This document shows, piece by piece, positions 1-44,628 of a stretch of 44,628 nt of DNA. Under the pieces are notes generated by a model. That model was not told the DNA's origin. It ran no database searches and worked only from the letters and a program-made list of their open reading frames with translations. Source of the DNA: a virus; the UHGV virus genome UHGV-0190738; one strand, 5' to 3'. Position numbers and translations under genes: made by a program. Position 1 is the stretch's first letter. Each line of letters starts with the position of its first letter.

Positions 1-639
1 TTGAGAAAAAACAGTGAAATAGCTGACTTAATCGAGAAATACAGAAAAACGAGAAAAATATCTCAAGAAGAACTTGGAAAAAAATTAGGTGTTAATCGCT
101 CTACTATATCCAGATATGCCTCGCACGAGATTCCTTTCCCAGAAAACAAGATTTTAACAGCCGCTAAAGCATTAGACCTTGATTACTCTTTTTTAATAGG
201 AGAAGAGCTCATGTCGATGACTGGTAAAACAATGGTTCGTCCTCTTGTTGGAAAAATAGTAGCAGGACGTCCTCTTGAAAGCTACGAGATACCAGAGGAT
301 GTAGAAATCCCGTTGAATATAGGTTTGAAACATCCAAATTCGAAATTATTAGAAATTACAGGCAATTCTATGAACAAACTATTCCCAGACGGACAATATA
401 TTCTCATAGACCCTGATGAGCAGGTTTGTAATGGTGATGTAGCAGCTGTTAGGCTCAACGGAACAGAATATACTGTTAAGCGCTTCTACAGACTTAAGAC
501 GGGAGTTGTTTTAGAACCCGATTCATATGATGAAAAAGAGCATTCGATCATGATTACCAATCCTTATGAACTTGAGGAAGTTTATATAGAAGGTAAAGTT
601 GTATGGGACATGGCGAATCCTAGTAAAAGAAAATACTAA
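1..639 (+). CDS. CI-like phage repressor with N-terminal HTH_XRE and C-terminal S24/LexA-like autopeptidase domain. The TTG start at nt 1 is preceded, across the window junction, by the RBS GAGAGGTGA at 44614-44622.
   Basis: N-terminus has an XRE-type HTH (QEELGKKLGVNRSTISRY). C-terminus has S24 signature (GNSMNKLFPDGQYILID...GDVAAVRLNGTEYTVKRF). It lies divergent from the cro-like gene at the other window end. Confidence 0.85.
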   Translation: MRKNSEIADLIEKYRKTRKISQEELGKKLGVNRSTISRYASHEIPFPENKILTAAKALDLDYSFLIGEELMSMTGKTMVRPLVGKIVAGRPLESYEIPEDVEIPLNIGLKHPNSKLLEITGNSMNKLFPDGQYILIDPDEQVCNGDVAAVRLNGTEYTVKRFYRLKTGVVLEPDSYDEKEHSIMITNPYELEEVYIEGKVVWDMANPSKRKY

Positions 640-640
640 A

Positions 641-672
641 AAAGCCCGTGCTGCGAACACGGACTAACAACC
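641..672 (-). terminator. Hairpin CCGTG-N7-CACGG flanked by an A6 run on plus (a T-run on minus); weak intrinsic terminator, best fit on the minus strand.
   Basis: The inverted repeat gcccgtgctgcgaacacggac is preceded on plus by aaaaaa. On minus this reads as stem followed by GCTTTTTTAGTATTTT. Confidence 0.3.
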
Positions 673-719
673 TCATTTCTGAGATCAACTATAAAATTAT
701 TATATCAGAGATGGGGTAA

Positions 720-1352: not shown

Positions 1353-1413
1353 CAATTATAAAAACACACCCACTACTATCTTGGCGGACGGAGTGGATGC
1401 GCTCAAATAAATC

Positions 1414-1436
1414 GCCTATAGGCATAGGCTTATTTT
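1414..1436. terminator. Bidirectional intrinsic terminator after the lipoprotein gene.
   Basis: Hairpin GCCTAT-AGGC-ATAGGC followed by TTATTTT on plus. The same hairpin is followed by GATTTATTTG on minus. Confidence 0.45.
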
Positions 1437-1475
1437 ACTGTGCCTATTATACCAAAAAATAGGAGTTGAATAAAC

Positions 1476-3314: not shown

Positions 3315-3523
3315 ACCCTATTTTGCTCTACGAACAAGGCTATATACCTTTTTCTACATTACAAGACTTATTGTGGGATTTTGGACCAAATAGTATTTTT
3401 GAAGTCGGAGAAAAATGTTTTGAGTTTTACTGTAAGAAAGCTAACAAATTTCATGATTTTGATTATTACATATTACATTACGGGAGTGGTTTAAATGATG
3501 AGCGTGAGTGGTATTGTGAGTAG
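3311..3523 (+). CDS. Hypothetical small protein (70 aa), translationally coupled to the YolD-like gene by an ATGA overlap.
   Basis: ORF with an ATGA stop/start overlap. No recognisable motif. Confidence 0.4.
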   Translation: MNPILLYEQGYIPFSTLQDLLWDFGPNSIFEVGEKCFEFYCKKANKFHDFDYYILHYGSGLNDEREWYCE

Positions 3524-3749
3524 TGTAAAGATTTTAAAGTTTTCTGAACGTCCCCTCGTCTATTTTAAGCTTGATGATACTAGCTGTTTGATTGCTGGTC
3601 ACTCGTTGAATTTTCTTGCAGATGTAGAGGATGGAATGCGGATCGCTGTTGCTGGCGAGTACAATAGTAGGAAACAGTTCGTGGTGAAGAAATATGCGGT
3701 GATTGGCAAGACGAAGATTATGATGGAATTTGAAATGATGAAAATATAA
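3495..3749 (+). CDS. Hypothetical protein (84 aa), possibly with an OB-fold-like nucleic-acid-binding core.
   Basis: Overlaps the upstream ORF by 29 nt, with RBS GGGAGTGG. The pattern LVYFKLDDTSCLIAGHSLNFLADVEDGMRIAVAGEY resembles OB-fold beta-strand periodicity (weak). Confidence 0.4.
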   Translation: MMSVSGIVSSVKILKFSERPLVYFKLDDTSCLIAGHSLNFLADVEDGMRIAVAGEYNSRKQFVVKKYAVIGKTKIMMEFEMMKI

Positions 3750-3756
3750 AAATAAA

Positions 3757-3795
3757 CCCTCCACAACCAACTAAGGCTGTAGAGGGTGTTTGAAC
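3757..3795. terminator. Bidirectional terminator between the plus-strand moron operon and the convergent minus-strand genes.
   Basis: Hairpin CCCTCCACA-N13-TGTAGAGGG (one mismatch). It has T-rich tracts downstream on both strands (TTTATTTTTATATTTT on minus). Confidence 0.5.
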
Positions 3796-3824
3796 AATAG
3801 TTTATATTGGATTTTCTTCATCAT

Positions 3825-4061
3825 TTACTCTACAATAAATTCTCGCTTTATATTTTTAAACTCATCATCAGAAAGCAACTTAGCTATCACTTTTTTAGTA
3901 AGGTCAATATCTGGATAATATACCCCATAGCCTTCATTCAATGAGAACAAAATAATTTTTTTCAACTCTCTTAACTCAGAATTATTGAGGAGTATCCTTT
4001 CATTAGTTTTATCCATGAAAACTACCTCCATTCGTGGTATAATATTATAAAGGCAATTCAT
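3825..4061 (-). CDS. Hypothetical small protein downstream of the endolysin. The probable start is at 4016 (MDKTNE...), with RBS GGAGG.
   Basis: ORF with a good SD 8 nt before the internal ATG. No recognisable motif. Confidence 0.4.
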   Translation of the reverse strand: MNCLYNIIPRMEVVFMDKTNERILLNNSELRELKKIILFSLNEGYGVYYPDIDLTKKVIAKLLSDDEFKNIKREFIVE

Positions 4062-4098
4062 GTAGAGCTTTCACTTTTGCAGGGTGGGCTCTTTTTTA
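4035..4098 (+). ncRNA. Candidate short plus-strand transcript: an extended -10 TGGTATAAT (4035-4043), then a hairpin (4064-4092) plus a T6 run.
   Basis: This is an exact copy of a 9-mer also found at 30139 and 42296. A 5-bp GC stem with two GU pairs is followed by TTTTTTATTTT on plus only. The intergenic region lies between minus-strand genes. Confidence 0.2.
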
Positions 4099-4141
4099 TT
4101 TTATCATAAATACCCTTTAATTAATTTAAGAGGGCTGTTTG

Positions 4142-5251
4142 TTATACGTCCAGATACCAACGTGTTTCAGTTAGATCGTTGAATCCGTCTTTTGTATTAC
4201 CTTTTGGGTCATTGGTGCTTCGGATCATAATAATGATCGAATGACCTGCAACATCTTTCTGATTGAATTCAATTTGGAATCCTGCAGTGTCACTACGATT
4301 ATACACCTTAGCTGCATCCGCTCGTGGCAAGTCTTTCAGCTTGATACGTTTCAATTCTTTACCCGTTGTACGGTCGAGAATAAAAGCATATTGATTTTTG
4401 TGAGTACGAGTACTCCATCCTTCTGCTTTAATTTTCCCAGCCATTGCGCCGAATCCATCAACGTGACCTTTACCGTTTCCGACTTCCATTACAGAATAAT
4501 TCTGTCCAGCACGGTAGATATCCGTTACTTCAGATAGATTCGGAGCCGGCAGTGTTGTATATCCGTTATCGGTAATTCCAGTTAAATCGACATTACCATC
4601 CAATCCGCCGCCAACATACGTGGAAGTGAATTGATAGATCGCCACGCCGTCCATACTAGGAAATACGGACCATACAGGATATGGAGTGACGTTGTAATTC
4701 GGATAAGCAGCCATCCACAAACTATCAGGGAATTCAGCCAAGATTTGCTGATAGTATACATTTGCCAACGTGAATGGTTTGTAACTATAGTACATTGGCG
4801 TATACCCAGCATCACGAATCCTTCGCATACCGTATAAAATAGTATCCGTATTCGCTTGCTTATTCCCACTAGCTCCATGCTCAAAATCTAATGCCACGAT
4901 GGAACCACGAGGCGTTTTTACCTTCGGCAGGAAGTAATCCATAGTAGTTTTCGCAATACTCATGCTTCCCCACGTATCAAACCAAATGTATGTGTGCGCA
5001 CGTTTTCCCTGAGCTAAAGCTGAATTCACTTGACTAGAATAAGTCCACTGATTGTACAAACCGCCAGCGTTGTATCCTCCAATTTGAGCGATTGCGAACT
5101 TATCATGCGCATAACCAAATTGTCCTTGTGCTCCCTGATAGATTGCCCAGTCAACCCCTTGATCACCTTTCGCCGCATCCACATTCCCTGGGAAAATTGG
5201 CAATAAAAAAAGAGCCATAAATAGGCTCAGTAACGTAATTTTCTTTTTCAT
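4142..5251 (-). CDS. Endolysin: GH25 muramidase with an N-terminal Sec signal peptide and a C-terminal cell-wall-binding region.
   Basis: Signal peptide MKKKITLLSLFMALFLLPIFPGNVDA|AK. GH25-like N-terminal domain (GVDWAIYQG...YAHDKFAIAQIGGY...HTYIWF). RBS AGGAGGA before the ATG at 5251. The ORF track extends to 5290. Confidence 0.75.
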   Translation of the reverse strand: MKKKITLLSLFMALFLLPIFPGNVDAAKGDQGVDWAIYQGAQGQFGYAHDKFAIAQIGGYNAGGLYNQWTYSSQVNSALAQGKRAHTYIWFDTWGSMSIAKTTMDYFLPKVKTPRGSIVALDFEHGASGNKQANTDTILYGMRRIRDAGYTPMYYSYKPFTLANVYYQQILAEFPDSLWMAAYPNYNVTPYPVWSVFPSMDGVAIYQFTSTYVGGGLDGNVDLTGITDNGYTTLPAPNLSEVTDIYRAGQNYSVMEVGNGKGHVDGFGAMAGKIKAEGWSTRTHKNQYAFILDRTTGKELKRIKLKDLPRADAAKVYNRSDTAGFQIEFNQKDVAGHSIIIMIRSTNDPKGNTKDGFNDLTETRWYLDV

Positions 5252-5261
5252 GTGATTCCTC

Positions 5262-5459
5262 CTATTTTTTCGAATTGTATGCCGAGACACCTGTAACTAC
5301 TCCTAAAAAAGTAGCTACAGCATTAATTGTTAGCACAGTCATATCCGCGCCACCCCAACCGTATGCTTTTCCAAGTGTGCCAACTAAAACAGATGCAGCT
5401 GGCAACACCGTGAGAACCGCCCATTTAATAATTTGGTAATACTTGTCCGGTAAAATCAT
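5262..5459 (-). CDS. Holin (class with two to three TMDs).
   Basis: 65-aa product MILPDKYYQIIKWAVLTVLPAASVLVGTLG...VLTINAVATFLGVVTGVSAYNSKK with hydrophobic helices and a charged C-terminus. RBS AGGGGGG. It lies immediately upstream of the endolysin. Confidence 0.6.
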   Translation of the reverse strand: MILPDKYYQIIKWAVLTVLPAASVLVGTLGKAYGWGGADMTVLTINAVATFLGVVTGVSAYNSKK

Positions 5460-26993: not shown

Positions 26994-27090
26994 TTGTCCT
27001 GTAAGCGTTACAATGATATAATCCCTTTAGGGTGAATCCTTTAAAAGTTTGTTTTTCACTTGGCCATCGTGTAAACGGTGGTCTATTTTT
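26994..27090 (+). ncRNA. Candidate plus-strand small transcript: -35 TTGTCC, 17-nt spacer, extended -10 TGATATAAT (27014-27022), then a hairpin (27062-27083) plus TATTTTT.
   Basis: A canonical promoter geometry and a terminator-like hairpin (8 bp, 2 GU pairs) are found on plus only. The region is intergenic within a minus-strand operon. Confidence 0.25.
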
Positions 27091-27539: not shown

Positions 27540-28460
27540 TCAAGTAATTTTGATTATGTACTTTAGATAGACAGGGTTACCGATTCTATCCAAGCCATCG
27601 TGGAATTAGTTTAATTACTAACTCCGACCATCTAACCAAATATGTATTAAGCAACCTACTCCATTATGGAACCCACTGTTTATCCATGCCTGGCAGATAG
27701 GAATGCTCGGTTGCTTCGTTAGGACTATGACAAGATAGCCAATGTTGAACACTGGATCAGAATACCGCCCCTGACCTTGGCAAACTCATTTAACTATGAT
27801 TGCATCGATGTATCTGCTCATAGACCGCTACAAAGCCTGCGTAAGGCAACTTACCGTGTTCCTAGCAAGTCCAACTTAATGTTACTCCCCTAACCTACAA
27901 CTGAGAGCGTCTCACGTCTGAGATAGTATTCTATGCCTTTTAACTGATTCCCAGCACGCTGGTTAATTCAGCCAATCAACCGGCATCCGATAAGATTGAT
28001 TGTTTCCGTAGGTTCTCTAAGTCACTGGAGTGGCACTGCCCCACTCACGAAACTGTCTTTGCTTTTGGTAAAAAGGATTCGTAGACGACCACCGACTACT
28101 TCAATTACCCTTTGCGTCTTCTACTTCCGCCACAGTGACATAATATAAAGACGGCACGTGAACTTTAAAGAAAACGAAGTCTTTCAACTCCATTCTTATT
28201 TATTTTGTGCCGCCAGTGAGCTTCTAACTGCACCTAAAAGCTCGTTATATACATTGTGCAGATGTTGCCTTCTCTGTTTCCGCAGAGTGGCAGTGTAGTC
28301 AAAAAGCGAATAACCCACCAAGCTAGACGTTTATATGTTAAGAGGTATAAGGAGAAACTTCATGCCAATAAAGTTAGGTTGAGTCGTCTGCTTGGTGAAT
28401 TATCTACTCTATCATTTTAACCCCTATTGACATGAGACAACTACACGCTTTTGTCTCAAA
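27540..28460 (-). ncRNA. Candidate large structured non-coding RNA (a roughly 0.9-kb ORF-free, GC-enriched region just downstream of arpU). The strand is assumed from the operon context.
   Basis: No ORF of 60 aa or more in any frame. Local GC is clearly above the phage average. There are many short GC stems and GNRA-like loops (GCGGAAACAG, TACGGAAACA, GAGTGG-N7-CCACTC). Confidence 0.3.
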
Positions 28461-28874
28461 CTAATTTATTTCACCTATTTTTCTAGCAAAAGCAAATAAT
28501 ACCTTTTGTCTAATGCGATATATTGTTGGCTTACTATACCCATGTTTTTTACCAAACGAAGCCCAATCCATCCAACTATCCGCACCCCAATACTTCAATT
28601 CCATAAGCTTGCGGATATCACAGTCCTGTTCTTCTAACGTTTCCTTGATGCACTTCTTCCACAGTTGACGATTAATGATGTAAGGATCAGATAATTCTTT
28701 GATGACTTGTGATTCAACAGGATTACTTCTGATGTTACCTTTGCCGCCGCCGATGTTTTCATCAGCTTCTTTCATCTTGAGTTCTTCCTTACGGATAGCA
28801 ATTTCCTTGTTGTAATTCGGATAATTTGCAAACTTTCTGTCTAGTTCATTGATTAGATAATCGTTTCTACTCAA
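28461..28874 (-). CDS. ArpU-family late transcription activator.
   Basis: Size, position before the packaging genes, and the C-terminal HTH-like KPTIYRIRQKVLFAFARKIG are typical of ArpU/RinA-type regulators. Confidence 0.7.
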   Translation of the reverse strand: MSRNDYLINELDRKFANYPNYNKEIAIRKEELKMKEADENIGGGKGNIRSNPVESQVIKELSDPYIINRQLWKKCIKETLEEQDCDIRKLMELKYWGADSWMDWASFGKKHGYSKPTIYRIRQKVLFAFARKIGEIN

Positions 28875-29393: not shown

Positions 29394-29615
29394 CTAGTCA
29401 ATCCCATCATGTTTATTTCTCAAGTAAATGCTATACCATAAATTATCAACGCCTTTGTCAATATTCCGCAAAGAGCCACCGATACTATAAACGGCATAGA
29501 GCGCGATAAATGATGCTGCGCTAGGTAACTCATCTATGAATATAAACACAAAAGCCGTTATTAACAGAACAATTGGAAAAGCCACGTTAAAAAATTCACT
29601 GATTTTATTTTTCAT
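29394..29615 (-). CDS. Small membrane protein (two TMDs).
   Basis: FPIVLLITAFVFIFI and FIALYAVYSIGG hydrophobic segments. Confidence 0.4.
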   Translation of the reverse strand: MKNKISEFFNVAFPIVLLITAFVFIFIDELPSAASFIALYAVYSIGGSLRNIDKGVDNLWYSIYLRNKHDGID

Positions 29616-30006
29616 TTTTGTCCTCCAACAACTCTGGATTTTCGTAGATGTTACCTATGATTTCAATCGGTAAATCAATGCTATATAATAATTCAAATTC
29701 AGTATCTAGATTTTTATAATCAAGATAAAAACCGCCTTCTGTGAATCTGATTACTGACATATCGTCGCCCAATACGTCTCCAATAATCTTCACAATATCC
29801 CCCTCAAAAATCTCCACGCCGTTCTTGTCTTTCAGCCCTGTTGATTGCATGAGTTCGAAATTATCAAATATTGTATCTACTGTTTCTTGACTTGGAAAAC
29901 TAACATGCCCCAACTTGTATTGTTCATTGTTTCTATCAAACCATATTGATGTTACATCATGCATCGTATCTGCTTCTTTATCCCACGCTCTAAATTTCGG
30001 TATCAT
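29605..30006 (-). CDS. YopX-family protein. The likely start is at 30006 (MIPKF...), with RBS GGAAGTGA.
   Basis: MIPKFRAWDKE...GVEIFEGDIV...IEIIGNIYENPELL are YopX hallmark motifs. Confidence 0.7.
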   Translation of the reverse strand: MIPKFRAWDKEADTMHDVTSIWFDRNNEQYKLGHVSFPSQETVDTIFDNFELMQSTGLKDKNGVEIFEGDIVKIIGDVLGDDMSVIRFTEGGFYLDYKNLDTEFELLYSIDLPIEIIGNIYENPELLEDKNEK

Positions 30007-30034
30007 ATAATTCACTTCCATTTACTATTTTTTG

Positions 30035-30137
30035 TTGTATAATATGTTTGAGCTAGATCACAATAGTTACTCTATAACCATTATGAATACCCCCTAGCTC
30101 ACTGACCGCTGTCACCTCATATGACGCGGTCTTTTTT
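30035..30137 (+). ncRNA. Candidate small RNA unit 1: -10 TTGTATAAT (30035-30043), a roughly 90-nt body with a GAGCTAG/CTAGCTC closing helix, then terminator GACCGC-N16-GCGGTC plus T6.
   Basis: Promoter-like element, an internally complementary body and a strong intrinsic terminator, all on plus in a 250-bp intergenic gap between minus-strand genes. Confidence 0.3.
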
Positions 30138-30138
30138 A

Positions 30139-30245
30139 TGGTATAATTCAGACGAGCTAGATTCTTCCTTTTTAATTTCATTAAACTGAAAGCATATTTC
30201 AACTAGCTCAGAGACCGCTGCCACCCAATGTTCAGCGGTCTTTTT
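30139..30245 (+). ncRNA. Candidate small RNA unit 2: extended -10 TGGTATAAT (30139-30147), a body starting GAGCTAGAT with a CTAGCTC 3' partner, then terminator GACCGCTG-N12-CAGCGGTC plus T5.
   Basis: Tandem paralogue of unit 1. The ends and terminator are conserved but the middle segment diverges. Confidence 0.3.
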
Positions 30246-30273
30246 CTATGCAATCGCTTCGGTTACCGGATCT

Positions 30274-30483
30274 TTAGTGATACAGCATATTTTGGCTGAC
30301 TATGTTAATTTCAATTATCCTGAACAAGTTTCCTTCACTAGATAAATGATCTACGTAAAACGCACTTGCTTCTTTTCCCGTAGTAAAAGTTTCAGGAAAT
30401 AGTTTCCATGGCTTGCCTACTCCTGCGCATGTCATGATTCCGTAGCAGTCTACATTCATTCCGCCACCTCTTTCATTCCCCAT
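30274..30483 (-). CDS. Hypothetical small protein.
   Basis: ORF only. Confidence 0.3.
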   Translation of the reverse strand: MGNERGGGMNVDCYGIMTCAGVGKPWKLFPETFTTGKEASAFYVDHLSSEGNLFRIIEINIVSQNMLYH

Positions 30484-42295: not shown

Positions 42296-42364
42296 GTGGT
42301 ATAATTCCTCCTATAAGATATTTGTTTGACTAGCTTAGTTTGGTAGACGGGGCTAGTCTTTTTT
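42296..42364 (+). ncRNA. Candidate short plus-strand transcript: extended -10 TGGTATAAT (42296-42304), then hairpin GACTAGC-N17-GCTAGTC (42327-42357) plus T7.
   Basis: Strong intrinsic-terminator geometry on plus only. It would be antisense to the RBS/start region of the gene 41948-42295. Confidence 0.25.
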
Positions 42365-42550
42365 TGTGACTAAATTCGTTGGTTTTCCAAACGGTTGATT
42401 TATTAGATTTAGCTTCCCGTTCCCAGTTGTAGCAAACAAACTCTTCATAAATGTTTGAATCATAATCAGTTGTTCTTCTGACAATGCAACCGGATAGTAT
42501 TGATCACCTCTGATATACATAACGGCAAATGTTTCGTTAAAATCTTCCAC
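42353..42550 (-). CDS. Hypothetical small protein (GTG start).
   Basis: ORF, with RBS GGGGGTGA. Confidence 0.35.
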   Translation of the reverse strand: MEDFNETFAVMYIRGDQYYPVALSEEQLIMIQTFMKSLFATTGNGKLNLINQPFGKPTNLVTKKD

Positions 42551-44242: not shown

Positions 44243-44473
44243 TCAAATGTTTCTTTTATGCACGTTTTGAGGTAAAAAAAATTCTCCTCTTCTAGATTTC
44301 GGGATATTTAAGAAATCCATTACCTTAGCCAATTCTCGTACGTCAAAAGTAATTAGTCCATCTTCTTTTCTAGAATATGAGCTTCTACCAATGTTTAAAT
44401 ATGCAGCAACATCAGCTTTTGTCTTCCCTTCATTCTTTCGAGCTTCTTTTAACAAATTATAGTCAAATAACAA
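44243..44473 (-). CDS. Cro-like HTH_XRE regulator (TTG start).
   Basis: TKADVAAYLNIGRSSYSRKE HTH. Divergent from the repressor across the switch region. RBS GAGAGGAAGGTGA. Confidence 0.7.
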   Translation of the reverse strand: MLFDYNLLKEARKNEGKTKADVAAYLNIGRSSYSRKEDGLITFDVRELAKVMDFLNIPKSRRGEFFLPQNVHKRNI

Positions 44474-44505
44474 TTATATTCACCTTCCTCTCTGTTACAT
44501 AATGA

Positions 44506-44534
44506 ATCATAACAAGATTCGTGCGTATACGCAA
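44506..44534 (-). promoter_or_regulatory. Early lytic promoter (for cro): -35 TTGCGT, 17-nt spacer, extended -10 TGTTATGAT. An operator palindrome overlaps the spacer.
   Basis: Read on minus: TTGCGTATACGCACGAATCTTGTTATGAT. The palindrome GTGCGTATACGCAa lies inside. Confidence 0.45.
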
Positions 44535-44560
44535 CATAAAATAATAAATAATTTTGCTTG

Positions 44561-44587
44561 TTGCGTTATGCGCACGTTTGTTATACT
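44561..44587 (+). promoter_or_regulatory. Repressor promoter: -35 TTGCGT, 15-nt spacer, extended -10 TGTTATACT. The operator half-site CGCACG lies in the spacer.
   Basis: TTGCGTTATGCGCACGTTTGTTATACT, followed by RBS GAGAGGTGA. The TTG at position 1 is across the circular junction. Confidence 0.45.
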
Positions 44588-44628
44588 AGGATCGTTGATA
44601 CGAACATGTTTTCGAGAGGTGATAAAAA

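What the first reader, a model, noticed from the sequence alone, without database searches (positions are those of the whole stretch)
30022..30273. Tandem pair of promoter-RNA-terminator units on the opposite strand in a 250-bp intergenic gap
There are two adjacent plus-strand units of about 100 bp. Each has a -10 element (TTGTATAAT at 30035, perfect extended -10 TGGTATAAT at 30139). Each body begins GAGCTAGAT and contains a 3' CTAGCTC that can pair with the 5' GAGCTAG. Each ends in a GC-rich hairpin plus U-run (GACCGC-N16-GCGGTC-T6; GACCGCTG-N12-CAGCGGTC-T5). The ends are conserved while the middles diverge, as expected for paralogous structured small RNAs. They lie antisense to the surrounding minus-strand operon, between a small gene and the YopX gene, and there is no downstream plus-strand ORF, so this is not a type III TA locus. 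The same promoter-hairpin-T-run module recurs on plus at 4035-4098, 26994-27090 and 42296-42364, and once on minus at about 1400-1455. The exact 9-mer TGGTATAAT occurs three times on plus, where roughly 0.2-0.3 would be expected by chance. This points to a family of short antisense or decoy transcripts, or transcriptional roadblocks, punctuating the lytic operons.
Basis: seen in the sequence. Interest (0 to 1): 0.7.

Follow-up and report, generated by a model that had tools for sequence, protein, structure and literature searches.

The report
Tandem small-RNA genes in Enterococcus prophage
The 250-bp gap holds two neighbouring genes for small structured RNAs of about 90 nt, each with its own promoter and terminator and facing against the phage genes; they belong to an undescribed RNA family found in arrays of one to five in related gut phages, and their targets are still unknown.

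Summary
Window 30050-30137 and 30154-30246 (+ strand) are two paralogous units. Each has a -10 box 6 nt before a 5' G, a 7-bp closing stem (GAGCTAG/CTAGCTC) around a variable C-rich loop, a 3-nt linker, and a GC-rich hairpin followed by a T-run.

A covariance model built from these units found 68 copies (47 distinct) in IMG/VR and gut-metagenome phage contigs. In that set 96.9% of base-pair cells are paired, and 13 of 15 pairs show compensatory changes. G.U pairs outnumber A.C pairs 19 to 1, which marks the + strand as the RNA strand. 33 of 40 distinct upstream regions keep a -10 hexamer at the same distance.

All 63 units checked lie antisense to the phage backbone genes. They cluster just upstream of YopX or of the late activator gene. 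Behind one identical 69-aa gene, different contigs carry 0, 1 (a recombinant) or 2 units.

There is no Rfam, GenBank-phage or literature match.

Best reading: these are moron-like prophage small-RNA genes. They probably act by base pairing through unpaired C-rich, anti-Shine-Dalgarno-like loops. No target was found in the phage. An antisense "lock" on the phage's own early mRNA is the main rival.

The other promoter-hairpin modules in the window are real and also antisense, but they are not detectable family members. This is a new member of a known kind, of moderate interest.

The parts
30035..30043 (+). -10 region of unit 1 (TTGTATAAT). The TATAAT hexamer ends 6 nt before the 5' G of the RNA.
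   Evidence: Read from the sequence. A -10 hexamer sits at the same distance in 33 of 40 distinct family members, and 31 of those have TG just upstream.
30050..30137 (+). Small RNA unit 1, about 88 nt. Closing stem 30050-30056 with 30094-30100. Inner hairpin, then an unpaired AUGAAUACCCCC segment. Linker ACT. Terminator hairpin 30104-30131 with a C-rich loop. T-run 30132-30137.
   Evidence: The fold has z = -5.8. Covariance-model scores are 73.5 and 71.1 bits. A divergent homologue, L136:3809-3892, keeps the inner hairpin through a G-C to A-U change and keeps the C-rich segment.
30139..30147 (+). Extended -10 of unit 2 (TGGTATAAT). It overlaps the end of unit 1's T-run region.
   Evidence: The same spacing of 6 nt to the 5' G is seen here.
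30154..30246 (+). Small RNA unit 2, about 93 nt. Closing stem 30154-30160 with 30203-30209. Unpaired UUCUUCCUUUUU, two small hairpins, and a conserved AAGCAUAUUUCAA segment. Linker AGA. Terminator hairpin 30213-30240 with loop CCACCCAAUGUU. T-run 30241-30245.
   Evidence: The fold has z = -5.3. Covariance-model scores are 86.5 and 80.8 bits. Variants in L001, L004, L003 and L101 show G.U-preserving and compensatory changes.
30247..30273 (.). Conserved junction sequence (TATGCAATCGCTTCGGTTACCGGATCT) between the last unit and the stop codon of the 69-aa gene.
   Evidence: It is present after the last unit in loci with different neighbouring genes. It is also present in loci with no unit at all, L102 and L106.
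29605..30021 (-). YopX-family gene. The likely true start is the ATG at 30006, with RBS GGAAG at 30015-30019. Unit 1's promoter abuts this RBS, and the two are back to back.
   Evidence: phrog_98; PF09643 in the identical L104. The same promoter-RBS arrangement appears in L003, L004, L008 and L091-L100.
30274..30483 (-). 69-aa gene of unknown function, upstream of the units in gene sense. It served as the anchor for the presence/absence comparison.
28461..28874 (-). Late transcriptional activator-like gene (DUF722; phrog_36/248), 1.2 kb downstream of the units in gene sense.
   Evidence: In L001, L010, L101 and L106 a family unit lies about 90 nt upstream of the homologous gene.
27014..27090 (+). 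Possible distant relative. It has a -10 (GATATAAT), a stem around a loop containing UCCUUU, and a terminator plus T-run. It is not a significant covariance-model hit.
   Evidence: The fold has z = -3.4. The model gives 11 bits, E = 4.8. Homologues in L092, L096, L098 and L100 have the family-type terminator GACCGCTG/CAGCGGTC.

Best explanation
**What it is.** The gap contains two sibling genes for small non-coding RNAs of about 88 and 93 nt. They belong to a previously undescribed family carried by temperate phages that are probably enterococcal.

**Anatomy, shown or strongly implied by sequence comparison.**
- Each gene is a self-contained cassette.
- A sigma-A type -10 box, mostly of the extended TRTGnTATAAT form, is placed 6-7 nt before a 5' G.
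- The RNA begins with that G.
- Its first 7 nt pair with 7 nt just before the terminator. This closes off a variable loop domain.
- An intrinsic terminator with an unusually large C-rich loop ends the transcript.
- The cassettes sit in intergenic gaps of the early/late-early operon and always point against the phage genes. In this window that is also the direction of cI and int.
- They are gained, lost and recombined like morons.

**Mechanism, inferred.**
- Because each cassette has its own host-type promoter, it is probably transcribed independently of the lytic promoters, including in the lysogen.
- The paired 5' end and the terminator hairpin would stabilise the RNA.
- The conserved unpaired C/U-rich segments resemble the 3' end of 16S rRNA. 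Examples are UUCUUCCUUUUU, ACCCCC and CUCCUUUUUU, plus the C-rich terminator loops.
- These segments would pair with G-rich Shine-Dalgarno regions of target mRNAs, blocking translation or triggering decay.
- The different loops of the siblings would give overlapping but distinct target sets.
- The targets are not in the phage itself. They are presumably host mRNAs or mRNAs of other mobile elements.
For: **Anatomy and chance.**

**The family exists.**
- Pattern scans and covariance-model searches gave 68 units, 47 of them distinct, in IMG/VR and gut-metagenome contigs.

**The structure is under selection.**
- 96.9% of cells are paired, against 25-46% when the 3' partners are slid by 1 to 3 columns.
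- 13 of 15 pairs show compensatory changes.
- None of 500 shuffles reached the observed values.
- RNAalifold predicts the same two helices on its own.

**Strand.**
- There are 19 G.U cells against 1 A.C cell.

**Promoter.**
- A -10 hexamer lies 4-9 nt upstream in 33 of 40 distinct units, and 31 of those have TG.

**Moron-like behaviour.**
- 0, 1 or 2 units are found behind the same 69-aa gene, including a recombinant unit made of the U1 body and the U2 terminator.
- Arrays hold 1-5 units.
- Units lie next to antisense accessory genes, including an Abi_alpha gene.

**C-rich loops.**
- C:G is 137:65 in the inner loops and 58:25 in the terminator loops.
- A UCC/CCC motif is present in nearly every unit.
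- The motif's mean unpaired probability is 0.75, against 0.44 overall.

**Orientation.**
- All 63 units checked are antisense to the backbone genes: 57 by an automatic rule and 6 by inspection.
- The cI repressor (1-639) and integrase (1476-2612) are on the + strand.
Against: - There is no expression data. The transcription start, the RNA ends and expression in lysogens are all inferred.
- No target was found.
  - Duplex scans of U1 and U2 against 68 translation-initiation regions of the window did no better than shuffled RNAs.
  - Seed complements have no second site in the window.
  - Hits in other fetched phage loci are at chance level and look like generic ribosome-binding sites.
- No host genome was available for a target search.
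- C-richness could be partly inherited rather than selected, because many units are related.
- The strict antisense orientation and the clustering just upstream of YopX and the late activator fit a cis role at least as well.
- The -35 regions are weak.
- The alignments used for pair counts were fitted to the model, which favours the model's structure.
Confidence: 0.5

Rival explanations
1. **Cis-acting antisense lock.** The RNAs, and the act of transcribing them head-on, work on the phage's own early polycistronic transcript.
- RNA polymerase sitting at or firing from the antisense promoters interferes with readthrough towards YopX and the late activator.
- The small RNAs, which are perfectly complementary to the intergenic mRNA, create RNase III substrates.
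- This would uncouple or silence the downstream genes, tightening lysogeny or timing late expression.
For: - All 63 units are antisense to the backbone genes.
- Units concentrate in two places. One is directly upstream of YopX. The other is about 90 nt upstream of the phrog_248 late-activator gene, in L001, L010, L101 and L106.
- In the window the units lie 1.2 kb upstream of that gene.
- The antisense -10 boxes abut the ribosome-binding site of the next gene.
- Five further non-homologous antisense promoter-terminator modules in the window have the same layout.
- No trans target was found.
Against: - Antisense orientation is also what simple tolerance predicts. A strong terminator in sense orientation would break the operon.
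- A pure roadblock or antisense role does not explain the covarying closing stem, the conserved single-stranded C-rich motifs, or the large C-rich terminator loops.
- Closely related phages do without any unit at this junction: L102, L105, L106, L107 and L109.
- The transcripts are short and cover no coding sequence or ribosome-binding site.
Confidence: 0.27
2. **No function for the RNA product.** The cassettes are selfish or neutral promoter-terminator 'linker' modules. They persist because they are tolerated only in antisense orientation, and they spread by homologous recombination at conserved gene boundaries. Alternatively they act merely as + strand terminators and insulators.
For: - Copy number changes by recombination between repeats. 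L110 is a chimera.
- A conserved boundary sequence flanks the arrays and also occurs at junctions that have no unit.
- Presence is patchy among near-identical phages.
Against: - The closing stem has no role in termination, yet 6 of its 7 pairs show compensatory changes and it is 97% paired.
- -10 boxes are kept at a fixed distance in 33 of 40 distinct units.
- Unpaired C-rich motifs are retained across very divergent loops.
- A terminator-only role would not need a promoter.
Confidence: 0.12
3. **RNA antitoxin or anti-defence decoy.** The units are type I or type III antitoxin-like RNAs, or phage mimics of such an antitoxin or of another host RNA, that neutralise a toxin or an abortive-infection system.
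For: - The units are tandem repeats of a structured RNA in a phage.
- In L109 two units lie just upstream of an Abi_alpha gene, on the same strand.
Against: - No toxin-like ORF follows or overlaps the units.
- The neighbouring genes differ from locus to locus.
- The repeats are about 104 bp long, each with its own promoter and terminator. Type III antitoxins are 34-36-nt repeats processed from a single transcript.
- The only ORF across the units (30053-30202, - strand, 49 aa) is not hydrophobic, and it is destroyed in single-unit loci.
Confidence: 0.05

Closest known systems
LhrC family of Listeria monocytogenes (LhrC1-5), and more broadly the C-rich/UCCC-motif small RNAs of Firmicutes such as RsaE/RoxS and staphylococcal Rsa RNAs (from my own knowledge of the literature)
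   Same: - They are sibling small RNAs of about 100 nt, several of them in a head-to-tail array.
- Each has its own promoter and intrinsic terminator.
- They carry redundant unpaired C/U-rich motifs, including one in the terminator loop, that pair with Shine-Dalgarno regions.
   Different: - There is no sequence or covariance-model similarity: no Rfam hit at gathering score, and none among the weak hits.
- The present family is phage-borne and antisense to an operon.
- It has a 5'-3' closing stem as a scaffold.
- No regulator or target is known for it.
Prophage-encoded base-pairing small RNAs of E. coli (Pas sRNAs, AgvB/AsxR, DicF), as surveyed in bioRxiv 10.64898/2026.05.13.724894
   Same: - They are small-RNA genes carried as accessory cargo of temperate phages.
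- They vary in presence and copy number between strains.
- They spread horizontally (abstract read).
   Different: - The host phylum differs, and those RNAs depend on Hfq. Enterococci are reported to lack Hfq, ProQ and CsrA (PMC7724050).
- The sequences and folds are unrelated.
- The tandem arrays and the strict antisense placement seen here are not stated in the abstract of that survey, which is all I read of it.
Phage morons in the sense of Hendrix and colleagues (from my own knowledge)
   Same: - They are independent transcription units, with their own promoter and terminator, inserted between two genes of a phage operon.
- They are present in some relatives and absent in others.
   Different: - Classical morons encode proteins. 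Here the cargo is a small RNA of about 90 nt, and cassettes are stacked up to five deep.
Lambda OOP RNA, P22 sar and P1/P7 C4 antisense RNAs (from my own knowledge)
   Same: - They are short phage transcripts with their own promoter and terminator, on the strand opposite to neighbouring genes.
- They are used to tune the lysis-lysogeny circuitry.
   Different: - OOP and sar overlap coding or ribosome-binding sequences of their targets.
- The units here lie wholly within the intergenic gap, 30050-30246, between ORF ends at 30021 and 30274.
- There is no Rfam C4 match.

Membership tests
Any curated Rfam family (including LhrC, csRNA, RsaE, C4, ctRNA) | A match to the family's covariance model at or above its gathering score | tested here: not met
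   There are 0 matches at gathering score in the whole window. The best sub-threshold hit in 29950-30350 is isrD at 20.6 bits against 37, and it covers the terminator only. Arrays in L004 and L099 also gave nothing at gathering score.
Rfam RF02845 Ref1C (Enterococcus sRNA 1C) | A match at gathering score (90 bits) | tested here: not met
   The only match is a neighbouring two-hairpin module in L099 (3943-4056), at 35.7 bits. The window units do not match. Ref1C is reported present in all 25 sequenced E. faecalis genomes examined, that is, apparently core (PMC3074167).
Type III toxin-antitoxin (ToxIN-like) | Short tandem RNA repeats of about 34-36 nt on one transcript, directly followed on the same strand by an endoribonuclease toxin gene | tested here: not met
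   The units are about 104 bp, each with its own -10 box and terminator. No + strand ORF lies downstream.
Type I toxin-antitoxin | A small, usually hydrophobic toxin ORF whose mRNA is overlapped by the antisense RNA, with the pair conserved together | tested here: not met
   The units overlap no conserved ORF. The flanking genes differ between loci. The 49-aa ORF across the units is not hydrophobic and is not kept in single-unit loci.
Phage moron | An autonomous promoter and terminator flanking the cargo, lying between two genes of a phage operon | tested here: met
   The -10 box and the intrinsic terminator are conserved across the family. The location is intergenic. Promoter activity itself was not measured.
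Phage moron | Present in some closely related phages and absent from others at the same junction | tested here: met
   0, 1 or 2 units follow the identical 69-aa gene in L102-L111.
C-rich (UCCC-type) base-pairing small RNAs of Firmicutes (a functional class, not a homology family) | Accessible C-rich motifs in loops or single-stranded stretches | tested here: met
   The motif is in nearly all of the 19 distinct units tabulated. C:G is 137:65 in the inner loops. Across 34 distinct units the mean unpaired probability of the motif is 0.75, against 0.44 overall.
C-rich (UCCC-type) base-pairing small RNAs of Firmicutes (a functional class, not a homology family) | Demonstrated pairing with Shine-Dalgarno regions of target mRNAs | not testable with these tools
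   There is no host genome and no interaction data. In-phage scans were negative.
Overlapping cis-antisense RNA (OOP/sar type) | The transcript overlaps the coding sequence or ribosome-binding site of a gene on the other strand | tested here: not met
   The predicted RNAs span 30050-30137 and 30154-30246. The neighbouring ORFs end at 30021 (probable true start 30006) and start at 30274.
MITE/REP-like dispersed repeat | Terminal inverted repeats with a target-site duplication, and dispersal through host chromosomes | tested here: not met
   The unit ends are a -10 box and a T-run, not inverted repeats. The strict pattern gave only one match in 185,579 representative genomes: a hit in a Saccharibacteria contig, which I regard as chance and did not examine. 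All true copies lie in phage contexts.

The most novel reading that the evidence does not exclude
The conserved scaffold (promoter, closing stem, terminator) serves to display interchangeable loop 'warheads'. The stacked cassettes would then form a modular RNA-based interference repertoire: each sibling silences a different gene of a competing phage, a phage-inducible island or a host defence system. Alternatively, the cassettes together form a programmable antisense gate in front of the late activator. Either way this would be an RNA-only accessory system in Gram-positive temperate phages that diversifies through cassette exchange.
Probability: 0.12. Interest if true: 0.75.

Novelty: new member of a known kind. 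Interest (0 to 1): 0.45.

Why it matters
Very few phage-encoded regulatory RNAs are characterised in Gram-positive bacteria, and I found none described for this family.

Enterococci are major hospital pathogens whose prophages shape fitness and gene transfer. They are also reported to lack Hfq, ProQ and CsrA (PMC7724050).

This family has clear structural covariation, is found in human-gut metagenome contigs, and varies in copy number from 0 to 5. That gives a concrete handle on three questions:
- how prophages rewire host or phage gene expression by RNA;
- how small-RNA genes evolve as mobile cassettes;
- whether antisense cassettes gate the early-to-late switch.

The covariance model built here could be used directly to annotate these genes.

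Tried and rejected
**Known RNA families.**
- tRNA or tmRNA: ARAGORN found none.
- Rfam: nothing at gathering score or at permissive thresholds.

**Sequence and literature searches.**
- GenBank phages by blastn, using the gap and two other arrays as queries: no match.
- Literature and supplement searches for the sequences and their promoters: no match.
They lie on opposite strands, unlike this pair.
- 80 YopX-encoding phage loci: only two carry units. The family therefore does not travel with YopX in general.

**Target searches.**
- Translation-initiation regions of the window.
- All fetched loci. The top hits were homologous units in flipped loci, and the rest were chance-level, generic ribosome-binding sites.
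- Seed complements within the window.
- The late activator's initiation region next to its adjacent unit.
- None of these did better than shuffled controls.

**Other readings.**
- Minus-strand RNA: the - strand folds are as stable or more stable for unit 1. The 19:1 G.U to A.C ratio, the position of the T-run and the -10 boxes all reject it.
- Small ORFs in the units: only a 4-codon mini-ORF (read by eye on the - strand of unit 1) and a non-conserved 49-aa ORF.
- Pfam on antisense ORFs next to arrays in other loci: nothing found.
Full report
**1. What is in the sequence**

Window 30022-30273 is the gap between a 69-aa gene (30274-30483, - strand) and a YopX-family gene (29605-30021, - strand). 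On the + strand it contains two units of about 104 bp.

- Unit 1:
  - TTGTATAAT at 30035-30043;
  - 5' GAGCTAG at 30050-30056;
  - CTAGCTC at 30094-30100;
  - linker ACT;
  - terminator GACCGC-N16-GCGGTC at 30104-30131;
  - T6 at 30132-30137.
- Unit 2:
  - TGGTATAAT at 30139-30147;
  - GAGCTAG at 30154-30160;
  - CTAGCTC at 30203-30209;
  - linker AGA;
  - terminator GACCGCTG-N12-CAGCGGTC at 30213-30240;
  - T5 at 30241-30245.

The composite pattern occurs twice in the window and never in 100 shuffles. The units are 79% identical, with conserved ends and diverged middles. Both fold into a closing stem plus terminator, with z = -5.8 and -5.3. The generic terminator scanner missed them because their loops are longer than 8 nt.

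**2. The genome around it**

The window reads as a circularly permuted temperate phage genome.

- + strand: a cI-like repressor (1-639) and an integrase (1476-2612).
- - strand: a GH25 lysin (4142-5290) and a Cro-like HTH gene (44243-44473).
- All structural, replication and modification genes lie on the - strand between the lysin and the Cro-like gene.

The units therefore point against the lytic genes and in the direction of the lysogeny genes.

The nearest GenBank relatives of pieces of the window are Enterococcus phages. The host is therefore probably an Enterococcus, but this is an inference.

**3. It is a family**

- A strict pattern scan of IMG/VR returned eight contigs. They carry the same units, together with clearly related but divergent neighbours.
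- A covariance model built from seven units (R1) and a second-round model (R2) were searched over loci fetched by two further scans: a degenerate pattern scan of IMG/VR and of metagenomes.
- Together these gave 68 units, 47 of them distinct.
- Some of the metagenome contigs are labelled as human-gut assemblies.
- Arrays contain one to five units. Examples are L004 10842-11958 and L099 3651-4101 plus 5342.
- The family is narrow.
  - Of 80 loci encoding YopX relatives, only two have units.
  - No GenBank phage matches by blastn.
  - The strict pattern has only one match in 185,579 representative genomes, in a Saccharibacteria contig. I take it to be chance and did not examine it.
- No Rfam family matches.
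- Full-text and supplement searches for the sequences found nothing.

**4. Evidence that the product is a structured RNA made from the + strand**

- On the 47 distinct units, 96.9% of base-pair cells are standard pairs. When the 3' partners are slid by 1 to 3 columns, the figure is 25-46%.
- 13 of 15 pairs have compensatory changes: 6 of 7 in the closing stem and 7 of 8 in the terminator. No shuffle out of 500 reaches the observed values.
- RNAalifold recovers the same helices independently.
- These alignments were fitted to the model, which favours it. However, the variants are obvious by eye:
  - closing stems GAGCTGG/CCAGCTC, GAGCTAA/TTAGCTC, AGGTTAG/CTAACTT and TACACAG/CTGTGTA;
  - terminators GGACTGCCG/CGGTAGTCC and GACCTCCG/CGGGGGTC.
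- G.U pairs outnumber A.C pairs 19 to 1. The - strand RNA would therefore carry mismatches, and the + strand is the RNA strand. This holds even though unit 1's - strand fold is nominally more stable.
- A -10 hexamer lies 4-9 nt upstream of the 5' G in 33 of 40 distinct units, and 31 of those have TG just upstream. The exceptions are mostly a subtype that carries an extra 5' hairpin and a promoter further upstream.
- The fixed spacing implies that the transcript starts at the first base of the closing stem. This step is inferred, not measured.

**5. Features that bear on function**

(a) *Orientation.* All 63 units examined are antisense to the phage backbone genes. 57 were assigned by an automatic rule. 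The remaining six were inspected by hand: in L101 an IS30-like transposase and an antisense ORF had confused the rule, and L093 and L095 were also checked.

(b) *Position.* Units lie in the last part of the early region.
- Typically the first unit's promoter abuts the ribosome-binding site of YopX. This is seen in the window and in L003, L004, L008 and L091-L100.
- One subtype always lies about 90 nt upstream of the phrog_248 late-activator gene, in L001, L010, L101 and L106.
- In the window the activator-like gene (28461-28874) is 1.2 kb further on.

(c) *Mobility.* Behind the identical 69-aa gene, different contigs have:
- no unit (L102, L105, L106, L107, L109);
- one unit that is a recombinant of U1's body and U2's terminator (L110);
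- two units (L104, L108, L111);
- an unrelated antisense module with a TGTGGTATAAT -10 box, a hairpin and T7 (L103).

In L109 two units sit just upstream of an Abi_alpha gene, on the same strand.

(d) *Loops.* Nearly every unit has an unpaired UCC/CCC-type motif. Examples are U2 UUCUUCCUUUUU, U1 ACCCCC, and CCCCUCCUUUUUU or ACUCCUUUUUU in others.
- C:G is 137:65 in the inner loops and 58:25 in the terminator loops, which are unusually large.
- The motifs have a mean unpaired probability of 0.75, against 0.44 overall.
- Several match the 3' end of 16S rRNA (CCUCCUUU; from my own knowledge).
- A divergent homologue of U1 (L136:3809-3892) keeps the inner hairpin through a G-C to A-U change and keeps UAUGAAUACCCCC intact.

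**6. Interpretation**

The identity of the units as small-RNA genes is well supported. I put it at about 0.85. What they do is not shown.

*Best-supported model.* They are moron-like prophage small RNAs that act by base pairing through their C-rich loops on Shine-Dalgarno regions. This is how the sibling LhrC RNAs of Listeria and other C-rich small RNAs of Firmicutes work (established knowledge, not tested here).
- The covarying closing stem and the retained single-stranded motifs argue that the RNA product itself is under selection. The act of transcription or a terminator alone would not need them.
- The weakness is that no target was found:
  - duplex scans of the window's 68 initiation regions were no better than shuffles;
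  - seed complements have no second site in the window;
  - hits in about 1 Mb of other phage loci are chance-level generic ribosome-binding sites;
  - the activator's initiation region is not complementary to its adjacent unit.
- Host genomes could not be searched.

*Main rival.* A cis role, by head-on transcriptional interference and RNase III cleavage of the sense intergenic RNA, gating readthrough into YopX and the late activator.
- It fits the orientation and the position of the units.
- It also fits the wider pattern noted below.
- It does not explain the conserved RNA features.
- It is dispensable in close relatives that lack units.

*Minor rivals.* These are:
- neutral or selfish linker cassettes;
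- RNA antitoxin or decoy roles.

The defining features of type I and type III toxin-antitoxin systems are not met.

**7.

A scan for an extended -10 followed within 25-130 nt by a hairpin and T-run gives:
- four modules on the + strand (4035-4099, 27014-27090, 30139-30249, 42297-42365);
- two on the - strand (636-707, 1360-1454).

About 0.2 are expected. All are antisense to their local genes, including the two in the + strand lysogeny module.

Only the two units of the finding are recognised by the family model, even with filters off.

The module at 27014-27090 shares the design. It also has homologues with a family-type terminator, so it may be a distant relative.

The hairpin in the 1360-1454 module (about 1410-1425) is also followed by TTATTTT on the + strand (my reading). 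It may therefore simply be a terminator for the upstream + strand gene.

So 'short antisense units punctuate the operons' holds as a description, but it is not one homologous family.

**8. Novelty and score**

This is a new, well-supported small-RNA family of a known general kind: prophage-borne sibling small RNAs, or RNA morons. It is not in Rfam, and I found no description of it in the papers searched.

It would interest people working on phage and enterococcal RNA biology. It is not a categorical surprise, and the mechanism is open. Interest 0.45.

The most novel reading still allowed is a modular, cassette-exchanging RNA interference repertoire, or a programmable antisense gate in front of the late activator. 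I give it about 0.12 probability.

Noticed in passing
window 636-707 (-), 1360-1454 (-), 4035-4099 (+), 42297-42365 (+): Four further modules consist of an extended -10 followed by a hairpin and T-run. Each lies in an intergenic gap, antisense to the local genes, with its -10 box 15-30 nt from the next gene's ribosome-binding site. About 0.2 such modules are expected by chance. They are not homologous to the small-RNA family, and two of them would give RNAs of only about 45-55 nt. A similar but unrelated module fills the same gap in L103.
   Followed up: partly
window 27540-28460 (- strand in gene sense): An ORF-free stretch of about 0.9 kb lies between the late-activator gene and the packaging genes.
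- It is built of blocks conserved in most related phages.
- 173 nt (27877-28049) are 89.7% identical to unannotated DNA of lytic Schiekvirus phages of E. faecium, such as EFP01.
- The fold has z = -3.3.
- There is no Rfam match.

It could be a large non-coding RNA, or a cos site and late-promoter region.
   Followed up: partly
window 30247-30273: TATGCAATCGCTTCGGTTACCGGATCT is a conserved junction sequence. It follows the last small-RNA unit in loci with different neighbouring genes. It is also present at the same gene end in phages that have no unit (L102, L106). It is a possible recombination linker for module exchange.
   Followed up: partly
L110:1180-1267 (-): This single unit is a chimera of unit 1's body and unit 2's terminator. 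Array size therefore changes by recombination between the conserved parts of neighbouring units.
   Followed up: yes
L099:3943-4056 (-); also upstream of L101:3057: A two-hairpin module (GUCUAGCGGAAACUAGAC..., CAGACAGCCAGUGGUCGGCUGUCU followed by a U-run) lies between family units. It gives a weak sub-threshold match to Rfam Ref1C, an E. faecalis core small RNA: 35.7 bits against a gathering score of 90.
   Followed up: partly
L001:13960-14107, L004:11700-11849, L005:2560-2695, L008 (- strand) 2063-2190: A subtype of the family has its promoter (TTGATT/TTGAAA, 17 nt, TAAAAT/TACGCT) further upstream and an extra 5' hairpin (UGUCUUUUGAGAAGACA) before the closing stem. This would give an RNA of about 130 nt.
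   Followed up: no
L109:3385-4548; L101:1074-2033 and 3505-3915: The arrays sit in a hot spot for antisense-oriented accessory DNA.
- An Abi_alpha gene lies directly downstream of two units, on the same strand.
- An IS30-like transposase is inserted between units.
- An unknown 136-aa ORF follows three units.
   Followed up: partly
window 1-639 and 44243-44628: The window starts inside the divergent cI/cro control region and ends in it. The sequence therefore looks like a complete, circularly permuted phage genome of 44.6 kb rather than a prophage with host flanks.
   Followed up: no
window 30083-30100 (- strand): On the gene-sense strand, unit 1 reads as a strong Shine-Dalgarno sequence (GGGGG), 8 nt, then ATG, followed by a 4-codon mini-ORF (MVIE, stop). 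This is probably incidental to the C-rich loop on the other strand.
   Followed up: no
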